This document shows, in pieces, positions 24,578 through 30,795 of a stretch of 32,000 bases of DNA. This stretch comes from an uncultured archaeon. Its GTDB lineage: Archaea > Asgardarchaeota > Jordiarchaeia > Jordiarchaeales > Jordiarchaeaceae. The DNA is taken from the NCBI GenBank assembly GCA_964510585.1, contig CAZECW010000121.1:30001-62000 (forward strand), in the 5' to 3' direction. Position 1 is the stretch's first letter, and each line of letters begins with the position of its first letter. The notes beneath the pieces were generated by a model. It saw nothing but the letters and a program-made list of their open reading frames with translations. It searched no databases and was not told where the DNA came from. Both the position numbers and the translations under genes were made by a program.

Positions 24578-27322
24578 CTACGCCATAGTGTACCTTTTAT
24601 AGAACCATTTTTTAATAGCTTCAACCAGCAATAGGTAGGCGCCTATTAAACCCACTAAGACTATGTAGAATAAGAGGGGTGGGGGTTCGAATCCGAATAG
24701 TTCGCCTAGTGGTGTGAATGGTATTATCAGTGCGAGGGCAACAACGGCTAATGTGCTTATGAGCAGAGGCTTGCTTGGCTTGCTTTTATAGGAGGGTGTT
24801 TTGCTGGTTCTAATTATGAATATAACCAGGGCCTGAGTACATAGAGACTCTATGAACCATCCAGTTTGAAAAAGTGATTCAGACGCGGCAAAGACGGATA
24901 ACATTATGAAGAAGGTTAGGAAATCAAAAATGGAGCTTATGGGTCCAATGAGTAGCATGAATCTTCTTATGAAGGAAATGTTCCATCTCTTGGGTTTTTC
25001 GGTATATTCTGGATCAACATTGTCAGTAGGTATGGTTGACTCGGACAAATCGTAGAGGAGGTTGTTTAGGAGTATTTGTACTGGCGCCATGGGTAGGAAG
25101 GGCAGGAATAGAGATGCGCCTGCGGCGCTGAACATGTTACCAAAATTGGAACTCGTGCCCATAAGAATATACTTCAGTGTGTTGCCAAAGGTTTTTCGCC
25201 CCTCTAAAACTCCCTCAACCAACACCGTTAAATCATTACGTAGAAGTATTATGTCCGCAGACTCCTTTGCAATGTCTACTGCGTTGTCAACCGAAATGCC
25301 GACATCCGCGGTCCTTAAAGAAGGAGCATCATTAATACCGTCACCAAGAAAGCCTACAACATGCCCATTACTTTTTAAGGCATTCATTATCCTATCCTTC
25401 TGTTGGGGAGTCACCCTCGCGAAAACATTTGCTTCCTCCACAACCACCCCGAGAGCATCGTCAGGCATTCCCACAATTTCGCTTCCAAGAACAATTCCCT
25501 TAATTTTGAAACCCAACTGCTCACACAACTTTCTTGTCACTATTTCATTGTCGCCCGTGAGAATTTTTAGTTCTACACCAGCCTTGCTCAACAGTTGCAA
25601 AGATTCTTTAGCAGTTTCTTTGGGCGGATCTAAAAACACCAAATAGCCCAAAAACACTAATTCGCTCTCATCGTTGACGGAGTATACCTTCTTTTCCTCT
25701 CTAACCCACTTATAGGAGATTCCCAAAACCCTGTATCCTTCACTGCTAAACTCGATATGTTTCTGCTCAACCTTTTTTCTCAAATCTTGTGTCATATCAA
25801 TTATCCTACCTTCAAACTCACAGTAGGAACACACTTTAACTATCTCCTCAAGAGCCCCCTTCGTAATAAAAAGCCGTTCGCCCCTCACATCATCAACAAC
25901 AACTGAAACCCGCTTCCTCGTAAAATCAAATGGAATCTCATCCACCTTCCGGTAACCCCTAGCATTAACATCCACATTCTCATGTCTAAGTATTGCCTCA
26001 TCAAGAGGACTCCTCAAACCAGTCTGATAATAACTATTCAAAAAGGAATACAACAAAACTTTTTCATACTCGTTCCCCTCAAAATCCACGTGGAAAACAA
26101 GCGTTACCTTATTCTCCGTAAGCGTTCCCGTCTTATCAGTACATAAAACATCCATGCTTCCAAAATTCTGAATCGCTGCCAAACGCTTAACTATAACTCC
26201 CCTCTTAGACATTGCCAGAGCCGACTTTGAAAGGTTTACAGAGAGAATCATAGGCAAAAGTTCAGGAGTCAAACCAACTGCCAAAGCCACAGCAAAAAGA
26301 AGAGACTCAAGAACTTGAGCACTAATAGCAGTATTTAAAGAAAAAATCGTTGGCAAAAGCTGAGGCAGCAAACCAGCCCCCTCAGGAGTCAAACCAACTG
26401 CCAAAGCCACAGCAAAAAGAAGAGACTGCTCTGCTTGCAGGGTTTGCCCCTTGAGTAAAACATTCATAAAAAAGACAAACAGCACAAGGAAAAAAGTGAC
26501 CTGCATTATTAGAAAACCAAATCTTCTAAGCCCCCTCTCATACTCCGTTTCCGGATGCCTCTCAACAAGCCTCTTAGCAATTTTCCCATATTCTGTATGG
26601 CTTCCAGTCCTCACCACAACAACAGTTGCCGAACCGCTCACAACAGAAGTGCCCAGAAAAACATTGTTACCCATCTCAGTAAAATTTCCACGTTTCCCCT
26701 TAGGCTCCAAGGCCGTTTTTTCCACCGGAAAAGACTCCCCCGTTAACGCTGACTGATTAACAAAAAAATCCTTGGCCTCAATCACCCTGGCATCCGCCGG
26801 AACAATATCCCCCGCCGAAAGAAATACAATATCCCCCGGAACAATCTCGGAAAGCCTTACCTCCCTCCTGACACCATCCCTAAGCACCATCGCAGTAGTA
26901 GCCACCCTCTCCTTAAGCATCTCAGCAGCCTTCTCAGCTTTAGACTCCTGATAAAAGTCAAGAACCACACTAAACATCACAATCGAAAATATAATACCCG
27001 CATTCACTACCTCCCCCAGAAAAACCGAAATCAAACCCGCAAACAACAAAATAATTAACAAAGGATTCCTAAAGTGAGAAGCAAACTCAACAACAGCCGC
27101 CCGCCTCTTCCTCCTAGCAACCTCATTATAACCATAAATTTCAAGACGCCTCCCCGCCTCCTCAGATGAGAGACCCGACCGAGAAGTACCCAAACGAGCA
27201 AGAAAATCATCAATCGGAAGATCCAAAAGCTCCTCTGTCTCCACCACTAACTGCGCCTGGCTTGAAACCCCCTTCTTGCTCTTCTCCCTCGAAACGCTTA
27301 AACGCCTCATCGCTCTCACCAC
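24578..27322 (-). CDS. mgtA: Mg2+-transporting P-type ATPase (MgtA/MgtB-like)
   Basis: TGES, GLTPELLPMI, DKTGTLT phosphorylation site, TGD, GDGINDAP, NFGNMFS. The start may be a few codons downstream. Confidence 0.9.
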   Translation of the reverse strand: MVRAMRRLSVSREKSKKGVSSQAQLVVETEELLDLPIDDFLARLGTSRSGLSSEEAGRRLEIYGYNEVARRKRRAAVVEFASHFRNPLLIILLFAGLISVFLGEVVNAGIIFSIVMFSVVLDFYQESKAEKAAEMLKERVATTAMVLRDGVRREVRLSEIVPGDIVFLSAGDIVPADARVIEAKDFFVNQSALTGESFPVEKTALEPKGKRGNFTEMGNNVFLGTSVVSGSATVVVVRTGSHTEYGKIAKRLVERHPETEYERGLRRFGFLIMQVTFFLVLFVFFMNVLLKGQTLQAEQSLLFAVALAVGLTPEGAGLLPQLLPTIFSLNTAISAQVLESLLFAVALAVGLTPELLPMILSVNLSKSALAMSKRGVIVKRLAAIQNFGSMDVLCTDKTGTLTENKVTLVFHVDFEGNEYEKVLLYSFLNSYYQTGLRSPLDEAILRHENVDVNARGYRKVDEIPFDFTRKRVSVVVDDVRGERLFITKGALEEIVKVCSYCEFEGRIIDMTQDLRKKVEQKHIEFSSEGYRVLGISYKWVREEKKVYSVNDESELVFLGYLVFLDPPKETAKESLQLLSKAGVELKILTGDNEIVTRKLCEQLGFKIKGIVLGSEIVGMPDDALGVVVEEANVFARVTPQQKDRIMNALKSNGHVVGFLGDGINDAPSLRTADVGISVDNAVDIAKESADIILLRNDLTVLVEGVLEGRKTFGNTLKYILMGTSSNFGNMFSAAGASLFLPFLPMAPVQILLNNLLYDLSESTIPTDNVDPEYTEKPKRWNISFIRRFMLLIGPISSIFDFLTFFIMLSVFAASESLFQTGWFIESLCTQALVIFIIRTSKTPSYKSKPSKPLLISTLAVVALALIIPFTPLGELFGFEPPPLLFYIVLVGLIGAYLLLVEAIKKWFYKRYTMA
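26262..26427. repeat. 46-bp perfect direct repeat with a 120-bp period inside mgtA
   Basis: TCAGGAGTCAAACCAACTGCCAAAGCCACAGCAAAAAGAAGAGACT at 26262-26307 and 26382-26427. Confidence 0.95.
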
Positions 27323-28182: not shown

Positions 28183-28593
28183 TTAATAGGCTTCTACCTT
28201 TAGCCCTGTGATCTCTTCGATCCATTTGAAGTGTTTTTTGTTTCTTGTGACTACCGCTTTGCAGCCGTTGTTTATGGCGATTGCTGCTACGACCGCGTCG
28301 GCTCCAACGCTCTTCCCGTTTCGCGCCAGTTCTCCTGCTATTTTTGCGGCTAGAATCGCGTCGCTGTATTTAAAGCTTAAGACTTCTAACCTTTCAAAGG
28401 CGCTTCCCAGTTTATGTATTATTTTTTCCCTTTTCATGTTGTCTATCAAAACGTAGGCACCGAAGAGTGCTTCGTAAACGTTGAGAGCGGTGGTTGCGTG
28501 GATGCCTTCGTTGTCTAGCTTTTTGGTGAGTTCTCTAATGGTGCTCGGCCTTCTGATCAAATCTACGAAGTAGGTTGTGTCAATACATTTCAT
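28183..28593 (-). CDS. vapC: PIN-domain toxin VapC
   Basis: CIDTTYFVDL, TALNVYE, DAVVAAIA, VVTRNKKHF. Confidence 0.92.
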   Translation of the reverse strand: MKCIDTTYFVDLIRRPSTIRELTKKLDNEGIHATTALNVYEALFGAYVLIDNMKREKIIHKLGSAFERLEVLSFKYSDAILAAKIAGELARNGKSVGADAVVAAIAINNGCKAVVTRNKKHFKWIEEITGLKVEAY

Positions 28594-28807
28594 GCTCTAG
28601 CCTTCTATCAATTTCTTTCCGGATGGAGCTTACAGCTTCCTCGTAACCCTGCACATCGCTCAGTTCGGGGTAGAGATCTAGCACTTCAATTAGTTTACCT
28701 TTCTTCCCCACCAGCCTCTTTATGACATCTGAGAAACTTTCATCGTTTCTTTTTATGCTCTTCAAAAGTTTGTACGCCTCATCTGAGAGAGATATTGTTT
28801 TGGTCAT
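28580..28807 (-). CDS. vapB: DUF217-type antitoxin (VapB)
   Basis: MTKTISLSDEAYKLLKSIKR.DESFSDVIKRL signature; overlaps vapC. Confidence 0.9.
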   Translation of the reverse strand: MTKTISLSDEAYKLLKSIKRNDESFSDVIKRLVGKKGKLIEVLDLYPELSDVQGYEEAVSSIRKEIDRRLEHEMY

Positions 28808-28836
28808 ATGTGCACATATGTGTACAAATATTTAAA
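28805..28836 (-). promoter_or_regulatory. Leaderless promoter with a palindromic operator for vapBC
   Basis: TTTAAATA (28836-28829) centred about 26 bp upstream of the ATG; perfect 16-bp palindrome CATATGTGCACATATG (28805-20) covering the start codon. Confidence 0.65.
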
Positions 28837-29023
28837 TTTGATGGGATGCCAGAAGTTGTCCCATAATTCTCTTGGATTTTAACAGGTTTGAGGTGGCAAA
28901 GCCGACCGCCAAGCGTGACGCCACCTATATTATCTCCATTGAACCAAAACACCGAGAACATAACTCCTGCAGAGAAATGTTTTAGAGTGGAGGAAGCTTC
29001 CAAATTCCTACCCAGGTTATTCC

Positions 29024-29383
29024 ATGAAAAGGGTTCACAGACGTAGGGATAGCTACACCAAGACTACTTCAATGGCGAAGTCCCACTTCCTCCGGCTGAT
29101 AATGTTTCTCGTCGAGATGCTCTTCAAACAATTCGAGGACGCCCAGCTTGAATGTCCACGAGGAAGGGGAAGACGGCACAGCCACCCTCTAGGAAAGCTG
29201 GTCACCCCCGCCGTAATAAAACAGACCATTCACTTCTCTCACATTTTTCTAGAGATAATGACCCCCTCACCCGTAGGCATATCGCCAAACGACAACACCA
29301 TATGGCGTGCCGCCACAAACCCAAGGCTGAAGCCCATCATAGACGAGATGAGCAAACATGTAGTTCCAAATAAAAATGTTTAG
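29024..29383 (+). pseudogene. Probable N-terminal transposase remnant (IS4/IS5-like)
   Basis: PRGRGRR..HPL...VIKQ...S...LE...GISPNDNTIWR resembles the GRP.Y...PD..TI.R N-terminal domain; no DDE domain follows. Confidence 0.4.
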
Positions 29384-29569
29384 AACTCTGTTCATGTTAG
29401 AAAACGGATCGAAATTCTCAGATAAGTTCCAGAAGATCTTGAAAATTGTTAATTGTGTTAAAAGGATTGTTGGAAAACAAAAGTTACCTAGCAATATTAC
29501 CACAAAAGTTTGACAGCGAAGATACAACTCAAAAGAGGCTACAAGATATAATTCACGCAGAAACACTAG

Positions 29570-29846
29570 TTGACACTCTCCGCGACTAAAGTCGCGGGGA
29601 TTCTTCTGACTCATCGGGAGCCTTAGGAAGCAATGGGTGTGCCATCACCCAGTTAACACGCCCTTCCCTCAGGGGAACGGCGTCTGTGTTGGTACCCTCA
29701 TGGGGGCTGCGTCTTGTTTAGCCCCTTAAAGCCCAAGCTAAACCCTTCAGCTACCAACAACTATTGGTATACCCTACTTTCAAATAAGCTTTTTGGCGAT
29801 TCATCCCCACGACTTGAAGTCGAGGCTATCTCGCCAAGGTTTTGTG
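29570..29846 (-). mobile_element. Miniature non-autonomous IS200/IS605-family element (ends plus putative omega/reRNA scaffold, no tnpA or tnpB)
   Basis: Right-end hairpin TCTCCGCGACT-AA-AGTCGCGGGGA (29577-600) ending GTGTCAA on the minus strand. Left-end hairpin 29793-29837 centred on CGACTTGAAGTCG. The TnpB-tail-like peptide KNPRDFSRGECQ lies over the right end; the interior is densely helical. Confidence 0.78.
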
Positions 29847-29868
29847 ATAAGTGAACACTCATTCATAT

Positions 29869-30141
29869 TCACGAACCGAAACATACCATTGTATAGAATC
29901 CATATTGGTAGCCCCATTCCCAAGCGTCATTCCTTAATCCGCTAAGTAACCAATTGTTATAAATCGCATAGCCTAGTAAACCACCCACTGTTATTATGGG
30001 AACGTATTGAGTATAGGGGTTGGGTAATCCCTGAACGAAGACACCATTATAAAGAACATAGCCAATTAAATAAATGGAGCATGTTGCCAATATTCTTCTA
30101 AACTTAATATTACGATTTCTGCGTAGACCTCTCCTTTCCAT
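29869..30141 (-). CDS. Hypothetical membrane protein (may be the frameshifted tail of 30110-30640)
   Basis: Two hydrophobic segments; 32-bp overlap with the upstream ORF. Confidence 0.45.
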   Translation of the reverse strand: MERRGLRRNRNIKFRRILATCSIYLIGYVLYNGVFVQGLPNPYTQYVPIITVGGLLGYAIYNNWLLSGLRNDAWEWGYQYGFYTMVCFGS

Positions 30142-30640
30142 CTCTGGGTCCTAGGATTATCCAAGTGGCGTATAAAATAACATATACTGATAGTCCAATT
30201 AGAAGCATTGCTCCTACAATAATTATTGGTGTTACCGGTGTGAAAGTGATGATGAAACTCAGGATAGCTAGAAAAACCAAAGGTATCAAGAGGTATCCAA
30301 GCACTCCAACCTCACCCTTTTTCTTCCAGATAAGAGCGCCAACCGCCGATATCATAAAAGCAAAAATGAAAGGAAGAAAGACGAGGAGAAATGAACCATT
30401 CAATAGAGAATTCAGCACATAAGAAATTTGGGGAAAGTCACTTGCAAAAATAACCAAACTGCTAGGATCCAAACCCACATCAAAAGGGATAAGATATAAC
30501 ACGGATATGAAACCTGATAACCCGCTGACATCCGACGAAAACAAGTAGTAAAAGTAACCGAGAAAGCCGCCAAACATAGCCACACCCGCAAGAGACACAG
30601 ATCGGCCCAACTCTTCAATCGTATATTTTCTCTCAACCAA
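30110..30640 (-). CDS. Hypothetical multi-pass membrane protein
   Basis: GGAGGG RBS, TTG start, 4-5 hydrophobic helices. Confidence 0.7.
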   Translation of the reverse strand: MVERKYTIEELGRSVSLAGVAMFGGFLGYFYYLFSSDVSGLSGFISVLYLIPFDVGLDPSSLVIFASDFPQISYVLNSLLNGSFLLVFLPFIFAFMISAVGALIWKKKGEVGVLGYLLIPLVFLAILSFIITFTPVTPIIIVGAMLLIGLSVYVILYATWIILGPRDGKERSTQKS

Positions 30641-30795
30641 ATTTTCAACCCTCCTAGACTTTTTTCATAACCAAAGCAAAACCATTAACCATCAGTAAAA
30701 AAACTAAATGAGTTTAAAAGTACTCATATCAAATTTTACACCTTAAACACTTGTTTCTATCATGCTCCTCGATAATAAAAATATTATCAACTCGA

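What the first reader, a model, noticed from the sequence alone, without database searches (positions are those of the whole stretch)
29550..29850. Protein-less IS605-type mini-element that appears to keep a TnpB guide-RNA scaffold
About 277 bp hold both IS200/IS605-like end hairpins and no transposase or nuclease. On the minus strand, TTAT (29850-47, candidate target-adjacent motif) precedes the left end. Internal hairpins include GGGGCT/AGCCCC 29703-25, ACGCC..TTCCC/GGGAA..GGCGT 29658-83 and TGGGTG/CACCCA 29634-51. The element ends at ...GAGAGTGTCAA. TnpB omega-RNAs are known to derive from this right-end region, with the flank acting as guide, here CTAGTGTTTCTGCGTGAATT. Inference: a mobile guide-RNA cassette that borrows TnpA and TnpB in trans.
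Basis: partly seen in the sequence, partly recalled or inferred. Interest (0 to 1): 0.75.

Follow-up and report, generated by a model that had tools for sequence, protein, structure and literature searches.

The report
Decayed copy of guide-RNA mini-transposon
This 274-base stretch is one worn-out copy of a gene-less jumping element, present about 70-95 times in a hot-spring Asgard archaeon, that keeps both transposon ends, a promoter-like box and the folded scaffold of the TnpB guide RNA. Elements of this kind are already described, so it is a well-documented new example and not a new principle.

Summary
Window 29570-29843 (minus strand, left end to right end) is a protein-less IS200/IS605 mini-element (PATE). 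The genome has 27-28 full copies plus about 86 part-copies at contig ends. The family uses the IS608 code: target TTAC, guide AAAG, guide GAAT, terminal TCAA.

tnpA and tnpB elements with matching ends exist in the genome. A covariance model built only from tnpB-linked 3' regions hits every mini-copy over its full length (69-92 bits). The stems covary. Three occupied-versus-empty site pairs (metagenome versus this genome) show insertion exactly 3' of TTAC.

Two corrections are needed. The adjacent motif is TTAC, not TTAT. This copy is the most decayed full copy (92.5% to consensus): TCAC in place of TTAC, left guide ATAG, a mutated TATA-like box, and a 3-nt deletion that removes the outer stem of one scaffold hairpin.

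Expression and TnpB use could not be tested because no RNA run was listed. The concept is published (Meers 2023; Gomes-Filho 2015). This scan already reached the same reading on other copies of the family (e1-5396259) and on a sister genome (e1-5394212). Verdict: new member of a known kind, modest interest.

The parts
29570..29843 (-). The whole mini-element (PATE), 274 nt, read from left end to right end on the minus strand
   Evidence: Borders come from the alignment of 28 full copies with flanks and from three occupied/empty site pairs. This copy is 92.5% identical to the family consensus, the lowest of the full copies.
29844..29847 (-). Position of the target / left cleavage tetranucleotide (C_L, which is also the expected TnpB TAM). 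It reads TCAC here and TTAC in the family.
   Evidence: 86 of 94 left-end flanks read TTAC, and only this copy reads TCAC. The empty sites in G000 end in TTAC exactly at the junction.
29826..29829 (-). Left guide tetranucleotide G_L, directly 5' of the left hairpin. It reads ATAG here and AAAG in the consensus.
   Evidence: Alignment. AAAG is the IS608 G_L (PMC5934647).
29793..29837 (-). Left-end structure: an outer stem TTGGCGA/TCGCCAA encloses G_L and the bulged left hairpin (about 29805-29825, loop TTCAA here)
   Evidence: Inverted repeats I3 and I5. The structure is conserved in the tnpA-bearing elements on C169 and C162.
29762..29771 (-). TATA-like box. It reads TATACCAATA here and TATATAAATA in the consensus. 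It is homologous to the block about 29 nt upstream of the tnpA ATG in the full-length elements.
   Evidence: Alignments. All other contigs laid on this place read T and A at 29767/29766 on the minus strand (table 3). This is the most variable part of the family. A promoter function is inferred.
29703..29725 (-). 5' hairpin GGGGCU..AGCCCC of the putative RNA. Most copies read GAGGCU, which gives one mismatch.
   Evidence: It aligns to the first hairpin of Rfam HgcC only in a sub-threshold match.
29570..29715 (-). Omega-RNA-like scaffold, homologous to the 3' end of tnpB plus the right end. It contains P1 (29658-29683), P2 (29634-29651), P3 (29603-29633, outer stem lost here through a 3-nt deletion), G_R GAAT (29600-29603), the right hairpin (29577-29600) and C_R TCAA (29570-29573).
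   Evidence: Model R1, built from tnpB-linked sequences only, hits at 69.7 bits, E 2e-17, model positions 1-135. Covariation is shown.
29550..29569 (-). Flank that would serve as the guide (CTAGTGTTTCTGCGTGAATT) if the RNA is made and used
   Evidence: Assigned by position only. The flanks of all copies differ, and the first 16 nt of this flank do not occur a second time in the genome.

Best explanation
The stretch is one copy of a non-autonomous IS200/IS605 element (a PATE) of the IS608 type in a hot-spring Asgard archaeon.

Shown:
- The family has about 70-95 copies, sharp borders and the IS608 tetranucleotide code (TTAC / AAAG / GAAT / TCAA).
- It inserts 3' of TTAC without a duplication and is polymorphic in natural populations.
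- Y1 transposase genes with the same left end are present in the genome.
- The family consists of the left end (about 90 nt, including the block that sits where the tnpA promoter should be) fused to the last 125-185 nt of a tnpB-bearing element.
- That second part keeps four covarying helices found downstream of, or overlapping, tnpB in many Asgard genomes. This is the place from which TnpB omega-RNAs are known to derive.

Inferred:
- TnpA supplied in trans moves the element as single-stranded DNA.
- The TATA-like box drives an RNA of about 170 nt that ends in the right-end hairpin and runs into the flank.
- A TnpB supplied in trans loads it. The TnpB here is of the type whose RuvC-II glutamate is replaced by glycine, the 'rearranged' class of Altae-Tran 2023.
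- TnpB then cuts the empty site (TTAC + flank), so that the copy is restored by recombination (homing).

This particular copy is decayed: C_L reads TCAC, G_L reads ATAG, the TATA box reads TATACCAATA, and the outer stem of P3 is deleted. It is probably fixed in place and a weak or dead RNA source.
For: - Copy number and borders.
- TTAC at 86 of 94 left flanks.
- The IS608 code is as published.
- tnpA (three intact, 113-129 bits) and tnpB hits in the genome. Their left ends are 83-96% identical to the mini-element and their right ends 75-93%.
- The interior translates as EGANIDAVPLREGRVNWVMAHPL against TnpB AGALNIGAVYNGGHVNWAMAHPL. tblastn of TnpB aa 326-362 gives 65-71% identity on metagenome copies.
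- A model built from 10 tnpB-linked regions, with no mini-element in it, hits all mini-copies over positions 1-135 at 69-92 bits.
- Pairing: 94.6% of cells are paired against 37-53% when partners are slid. Twelve pairs change on both sides against 1-4. None of 500 shuffles reaches the observed values. In the wider alignment 14 of 20 pairs are compensatory.
- The P3 hairpin is kept with different sequences in every lineage.
- A sister species has an independently derived 206-nt mini-element from a different parent that keeps the same modules: about 91 nt of left end plus the last 123 nt.
- Three occupied/empty site pairs.
- The lesions of this copy.
Against: - No RNA evidence is available, so transcription, RNA ends and TnpB loading are untested.
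- The nearest tnpB-linked scaffold in the genome is only about 75% identical over 124 nt. A parent with the same P1 and P3 sequences was not found, so cross-recognition by the resident TnpB is uncertain.
- The resident tnpB cannot be shown intact, because the assembly lacks about 83 codons of it. One copy (C7) is frameshifted, and so is the sister-genome copy.
- The TATA-like block is the most variable part of the family, and the sigma-70-type scan does not apply to archaea.
- The copies are young (93-98% to consensus), so intact stems need not reflect selection.
- A perfect TTAC + 38-nt match to the flank of the C12 copy persists elsewhere in the same assembly. This argues against efficient cleavage, unless the two sites belong to different cells.
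- Homology of mini-element positions 88-136 to tnpB is collinear but not significant.
Confidence: 0.8

Rival explanations
1. The element is a PATE moved by TnpA, but its omega-RNA-like interior is a young, functionless leftover of the deletion that created the family. It is not transcribed into a working guide and TnpB does not use it.
For: - Full copies are 92.5-98.2% identical to the consensus, so there has been little time for decay.
- The promoter-like block is the most variable segment.
- The closest tnpB-linked scaffold is only about 75% identical.
- A perfect TAM + target for one copy's flank survives in the same assembly.
- Empty sites persist in the population.
Against: - In IS608, RE substrates of 45-56 nt and LE substrates of 60-100 nt were enough for TnpA complex formation (PMC3201880). 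Two independently derived families in sister species nevertheless both keep about 90 nt of left end and at least 123 nt of tnpB 3' end.
- All four helices remain paired in nearly all copies.
- Variation is lowest in positions 126-275.
Confidence: 0.3
2. The family, or some of its copies, acts as a host-used small RNA or as a mobile promoter. It would be comparable to the PATE-derived RNA VNG_R0052 of Halobacterium salinarum or to HgcC RNAs, and independent of TnpB.
For: - Overexpression of a PATE-derived RNA carrying the right-end tetraloop improved growth of H. salinarum (PMC4615843).
- There is a weak full-length match to Rfam HgcC (14.7 bits).
- Copies sit mostly between genes or at gene ends, and one lies exactly between a ribosome-binding site and an ATG, pointing into the gene.
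Against: - The HgcC score is far below the gathering score of 50 and did not recur on other copies.
- Insertion sites are polymorphic and are not conserved in sister species. That pattern fits a selfish element better than a host gene.
Confidence: 0.07
3. One reading: this copy is an active guide cassette with TAM TTAT and guide CTAGTGTTTCTGCGTGAATT.
For: TTAT is present at 29850-29847, and the flank is as stated.
Against: - The motif next to the left end is TTAC in the family and TCAC here. TTAT is three bases further out.
- This copy also has G_L ATAG, a mutated TATA box and a broken P3 stem. It has one of the lowest model scores of the G000 copies searched: 69.7 bits, with two others at 68.7 and 69.4.
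Confidence: 0.03

Closest known systems
Omega-RNA-encoding PATEs of IS200/IS605, as noted for Geobacillus stearothermophilus (Meers et al. 2023, PMC10055086)
   Same: A protein-less element with both transposon ends. [quoted passage not shown]
   Different: The host is an Asgard archaeon. Copy number is much higher (about 70-95 against a handful of PATE-like elements). The partner TnpB is of the RuvC-II Glu-to-Gly type. A left-end promoter-like block is fused directly to the scaffold. No RNA or biochemical data exist here.
IS608 of Helicobacter pylori (IS200/IS605 family)
   Same: The cleavage and guide tetranucleotides are identical: C_L TTAC, G_L AAAG, G_R GAAT, C_R TCAA. Both have bulged subterminal hairpins and insert 3' of TTAC without a duplication (PMC3201880, PMC5934647).
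   Different: This element has no tnpA or tnpB, it lives in an archaeal host, and TCAA lies closer to the right hairpin than the 10 nt of IS608.
PATE-derived RNA VNG_R0052 and sotRNAs of Halobacterium salinarum, and PATEs of Haloquadratum walsbyi (Gomes-Filho et al. 2015, PMC4615843; Dyall-Smith et al. 2011, PMC3119063)
   Same: These are archaeal gene-less derivatives of IS200/IS605 / IS1341 ends. Their RNA carries the right-end hairpin with a UUCA/UUUA-type loop, and transcription was shown there.
   Different: Those elements are fused left and right ends of haloarchaeal ISs. Here about 125-185 nt of the tnpB 3' scaffold are retained and expression is untested.
Rfam HgcC RNA (RF00062)
   Same: The hairpin order is similar, and the 3' end (hairpin, then GAG..GUCA) resembles an IS right end.
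   Different: The score is 14.7 bits against a gathering score of 50, so the element is not a member by Rfam's criterion.

Membership tests
IS200/IS605 non-autonomous element (PATE) | Subterminal imperfect hairpins at both ends on one strand, and no terminal inverted repeats | tested here: met
   Bulged hairpins at 29805-29825 and 29577-29600, conserved in all copies.
IS200/IS605 non-autonomous element (PATE) | Cleavage sites read by guide tetranucleotides located 5' of each hairpin (IS608 code TTAC/AAAG and GAAT/TCAA) | tested here: met
   Met for the family consensus. In this copy C_L is TCAC and G_L is ATAG, which is not a Watson-Crick compensation in either simple register, so this copy probably fails.
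IS200/IS605 non-autonomous element (PATE) | No transposase or accessory gene inside | tested here: met
   The element is 274 nt. No Y1_Tnp or TnpB hit lies in the window region, and overlapping ORFs have no Pfam match.
IS200/IS605 non-autonomous element (PATE) | Many copies at different sites, and insertion 3' of the target tetranucleotide without a target duplication | tested here: met
   27-28 full copies and about 86 partial copies with different flanks. Three occupied/empty pairs show ...TCAA|flank against ...TTAC|flank.
IS200/IS605 non-autonomous element (PATE) | An autonomous relative with matching ends that encodes the Y1 transposase in the same genome | tested here: met
   tnpA on C7, C162 and C169, with left ends 83-96% identical and flanked by TTAC.
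TnpB omega-RNA (OMEGA guide RNA) | The scaffold derives from the tnpB 3' end plus the right end and stops at the transposon boundary | tested here: met
   A model built from tnpB-linked regions alone hits 29570-29715 at 69.7 bits and other copies at up to 92 bits. A TnpB C-terminal remnant is readable.
TnpB omega-RNA (OMEGA guide RNA) | Conserved secondary structure supported by covariation | tested here: met
   The terminal hairpin is also a TnpA DNA site, so its covariation is ambiguous. P1, P2 and P3 are not known TnpA sites.
TnpB omega-RNA (OMEGA guide RNA) | Transcribed as a stable RNA that extends about 16-20 nt into the flank | not testable with these tools
   No RNA run was listed for this organism.
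TnpB omega-RNA (OMEGA guide RNA) | Bound by a cognate TnpB and directs TAM-dependent DNA cleavage | not testable with these tools
   This needs biochemistry. The resident tnpB is incompletely assembled, although a metagenome contig covers aa 149-358 without stops.
Rfam HgcC (RF00062) | Covariance-model score at or above the gathering score (50 bits) | tested here: not met
   14.7 bits, E 0.36, on this copy only.

The most novel reading that the evidence does not exclude
The roughly 70-95 copies are not passive hitch-hikers. They are selected, self-contained 'promoter plus guide RNA' cassettes that exploit a catalytically rearranged TnpB made elsewhere. Each copy would protect its own locus by homing, and guide-only parasites of TnpB would have arisen independently in sister Asgard species. 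Where a flank is duplicated (C12 flank = C154 site), such guides could also drive targeted breaks or rearrangements in the host genome.
Probability: 0.3. Interest if true: 0.5.

Novelty: new member of a known kind. Interest (0 to 1): 0.3.

Why it matters
The family is a clean natural system for testing whether guide-only derivatives of IS200/IS605 elements really use TnpB in trans. It offers many copies with unique flanks, natural empty and occupied alleles, a second independently derived family in a sister species, and a TnpB of the 'rearranged' RuvC-II type whose activity is not known to me to have been tested. There is also a practical point: this repeat accounts for about 86 contig ends, so it is a main cause of the fragmented assembly, and it should be masked in gene calling. 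The principle itself is already in the literature.

Tried and rejected
- RNA evidence: no RNA holder was listed for 29300-30100 or 28800-30700, so expression is untested.
- Laying contigs of four hot-spring DNA runs on the locus gave no joint across this copy. It showed only that summed contig depth over the element is roughly 50-400 times that of the flanks.
- Orthologous empty site for this copy: the sister genomes are about 80% identical, and synteny breaks about 200 nt from the element.
- An exact-pattern scan for the empty site of a young copy in JGI metagenomes found nothing.
- Parent element: a scan with a 31-nt core motif found only mini-copies, plus one contig that also carries a C8-type tnpB. 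No tnpB with the mini-element's own P1 and P3 sequences turned up.
- Rfam at gathering thresholds gave nothing. At relaxed thresholds it gave only a sub-threshold HgcC match on this copy, which did not recur on 12 other loci.
- Homology of mini-element positions 88-136 to the tnpB coding region is collinear but not significant (nhmmer 0.2 bits).
- The bacterial promoter scan found nothing and does not apply to archaea.
- The idea that the resident TnpBs are dead because the RuvC-II glutamate is missing was dropped. Glu-to-Gly clades are described as rearranged and probably active (PMC10691335).
- A compensatory reading of the C_L and G_L changes in this copy was considered and rejected, because neither register gives Watson-Crick pairs.

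Full report
**What is there.** On the minus strand, window 29843 to 29570 reads as follows:
- AAAACCTTGGCGAG..., enclosing a bulged hairpin within an outer stem TTGGCGA/TCGCCAA
- an A-run
- a TATA-like block
- a hairpin-rich 180 nt
- GAAT, a second bulged hairpin, and GAGAGTGTCAA

No ORF of the region has a Pfam match, and the genome's Y1 transposase and TnpB hits all lie on other contigs. The neighbours are a P-type ATPase and a PIN-domain gene.

**It is a high-copy mobile element.**
- The window's genome (3.78 Mb, 217 contigs) gives 137 blastn hits.
- These are 27-28 full copies inside contigs, plus 44 left-side and 42 right-side part-copies. In the hit list these part-copies lie almost all at contig ends.
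- That amounts to roughly 70-95 copies, and this repeat is a major cause of the assembly breaks.
- In the alignment with flanks, similarity starts and stops abruptly and the flanks are unrelated.
- The four bases outside the left end are TTAC at 86 of 94 ends. The other odd cases are alignment shifts. Only the window copy reads TCAC.
- The family consensus carries AAAG directly 5' of the left hairpin, GAAT directly 5' of the right hairpin, and ends in TCAA.
- These are exactly the C_L, G_L, G_R and C_R of IS608 (PMC3201880 and PMC5934647).

**Mobility is recent.** JGI metagenome contigs carry the same family at 96-100% identity to the consensus. In three cases a metagenome contig reads ...GAGAGTGTCAA|flank, while this genome reads ...TTAC|the same flank (98-100% identity) with no element:
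- L101 against C105:985
- L114 against C125:18937
- L110 against C9:3640

This fixes both borders. It shows insertion 3' of TTAC without a duplication, and it shows that occupancy is polymorphic in nature. For the window copy itself no empty site was found.

**Autonomous partners.**
- Three intact Y1 transposase genes (C7, C162, C169; 113-129 bits) sit behind left ends that are 83-96% identical to the mini-element and are flanked by TTAC.
- TnpB C-termini followed by a related right end (75% over 124 nt) lie on C8, C54, C152 and C45.
- C81 holds a complete but degenerate element whose last 42 nt are 93% identical to the mini-element.
- The middle of the C8-type tnpB (about 83 codons) is missing from the assembly, and the C7 copy is frameshifted.
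- A metagenome contig covers aa 149-358 without stops.
- These TnpBs have Gly where the RuvC-II Glu normally sits (VVGNL, VLGRL). That matches the 'rearranged' clades described by Altae-Tran et al. 2023 as probably active through an alternative Glu. Whether that holds for these proteins was not tested.

**The interior is a tnpB 3' end.**
- The mini-element still translates as EGANIDAVPLREGRVNWVMAHPL, against AGALNIGAVYNGGHVNWAMAHPL in the resident TnpB.
- tblastn with TnpB matches aa 326-362 on metagenome copies at 65-71% identity.
- I built a covariance model from ten tnpB-linked 3' regions of different Asgard genomes, with no mini-element in the training set.
- It hits every mini-copy searched over model positions 1-135 at 69-92 bits.
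- The window has a single hit, 29570-29715 on the minus strand, 69.7 bits, E 2e-17.
- On the resulting alignment 94.6% of cells form pairs, against 37-53% when partners are slid.
- Twelve pairs change on both sides, against 1-4 with slid partners, and no shuffle of 500 reaches the observed values.
- An independent RNAalifold run found compensatory changes in 14 of 20 pairs.
- A fourth hairpin (P3) runs from just after P2 to just before GAAT. It is present in nearly every lineage with different sequences: TTGCTTC..GAAGCAA in the mini-element and C81 type, TTGGAGG..CTTCCAA in the C8 type, and TCGGTTG..CAACCGA elsewhere.
- The terminal hairpin is also a TnpA DNA site, so its covariation does not separate DNA function from RNA function. 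P1 to P3 are not known TnpA sites.
- Homology further upstream (mini-element positions 88-136) is collinear with the RuvC-III region but is not significant.

**Architecture and a second origin.**
- The family equals about 90 nt of left end fused to about 185 nt of 3' region.
- The left-end part includes a block (consensus GGGTATATAAATAG) that is homologous to GGTATATTGATAG. In the full-length elements that block lies about 29 nt upstream of the tnpA ATG, which is the expected place for an archaeal TATA box of a leaderless tnpA.
- From this I infer that the mini-element transcribes its scaffold from the former tnpA promoter, starting near mini-element position 100-105.
- The sister species G004 has a different, 206-nt family. 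It combines the same about 91 nt of left end with only the last 123 nt, and its P3 is of the C8 type, so it comes from another parent.
- In IS608, RE substrates of 45-56 nt and LE substrates of 60-100 nt sufficed for TnpA complex formation.
- Two independent families that both keep the promoter-like block and the scaffold are therefore the best argument that the RNA module matters. This remains an inference.

**Evidence that tempers the functional claim.**
- No RNA run was available.
- The copies are young, at 92.5-98.2% identity to the consensus.
- The TATA-like block is the most variable part, at 14-18% per site.
- The closest tnpB-linked scaffold in the genome is only about 75% identical.
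- The flank of the C12 copy has a perfect TTAC + 38-nt match at C154:2119 in the same assembly. An efficient TnpB-guide complex should not tolerate that match, unless the two contigs come from different cells of the population.

**This copy.** It is the most diverged full copy (92.5%) and carries lesions in each functional module:
- TCAC instead of TTAC at the cleavage / target position
- ATAG instead of AAAG in the left guide
- TATACCAATA instead of TATATAAATA (all other contigs laid on this place carry the consensus bases)
- a 3-nt deletion that removes the 3' strand of the outer P3 stem (fold energy -5.1 against -15.6 kcal/mol for a consensus-like copy)

Its model score of 69.7 bits is among the lowest of the family; two other copies score 68.7 and 69.4. 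I read it as an old, immobilised copy.

**Comparison with what is known.**
- Meers et al. [quoted passage not shown]
- Gomes-Filho et al. 2015 showed a transcribed, phenotypically active PATE-derived RNA in Halobacterium and linked the right-end tetraloop to Rfam HgcC.
- The weak HgcC match here (14.7 bits against a threshold of 50) is a lead only.
- Earlier follow-ups of this scan reached the same reading on other copies of this family and on the sister genome's family. My tests were run before I read those notes, and they agree.
- The finding is a new, large archaeal member of a known kind.

Noticed in passing
G000 contig C12:8678-8955 and C154:2119-2321 (outside the window): The 3' flank of the C12 mini-copy (ATGGATCAGGG..., the start of an ORF; the element sits between a GGAG-type motif and the ATG) recurs on C154 at 98% identity over 198 nt. 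There it is directly preceded by TTAC, carries no element, and has an unrelated left side. It is a natural TAM + target for that copy's putative guide.
   Followed up: partly
G000 C75:18685-18870 and at least 7 other contigs (C207, C90, C213, C25, C47, C193, C66): A second, unrelated repeat family of about 185 nt. Its last 49 nt also follow the right end of the C62 mini-copy, and in the repeat they are preceded by TTACAA.
   Followed up: no
G000 C130:323-372: A roughly 50-nt 'nano' element that looks like a left-end start fused to a right-end terminus (AGGAATCTTTGACGAG...GCCGTGGCGATTGTCAA). It lies directly after TTAC, at a site whose left flank matches that of the C98 copy. A metagenome contig (L125) has a full mini-element inserted at that same TTAC.
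   Followed up: partly
G000 C81:5075-6830 (minus strand): A complete IS605-type element in which a tnpA remnant lacking the HUH motif and tnpB lie in one 571-codon open frame. The frame runs to the very last base of the right end (...SSRGECQ*).
   Followed up: partly
G000 C8, C81; G004:C141 (L052): All TnpBs of this clade have Gly in place of the RuvC-II catalytic Glu (VVGNL / VLGRL), like the 'rearranged' clades of Altae-Tran 2023. The G004 copy and the C7 copy each carry a frameshift near the N-terminus.
   Followed up: partly
window 29557-29727 (-): A sub-threshold but full-length match to Rfam HgcC (RF00062). Its 3' end (hairpin, then GAG..GUCA) looks like an IS200/IS605 right end, which suggests that HgcC RNAs of methanogens and Thermococcales may themselves be omega-RNAs.
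   Followed up: partly
window 28183-28593 (-) and 24578-27322 (-): A PIN-domain protein (36.9 bits) and a P-type cation ATPase flank the region. The small ORFs next to the element (29869-30141, 30110-30640, 29024-29383) have no Pfam match.
   Followed up: no
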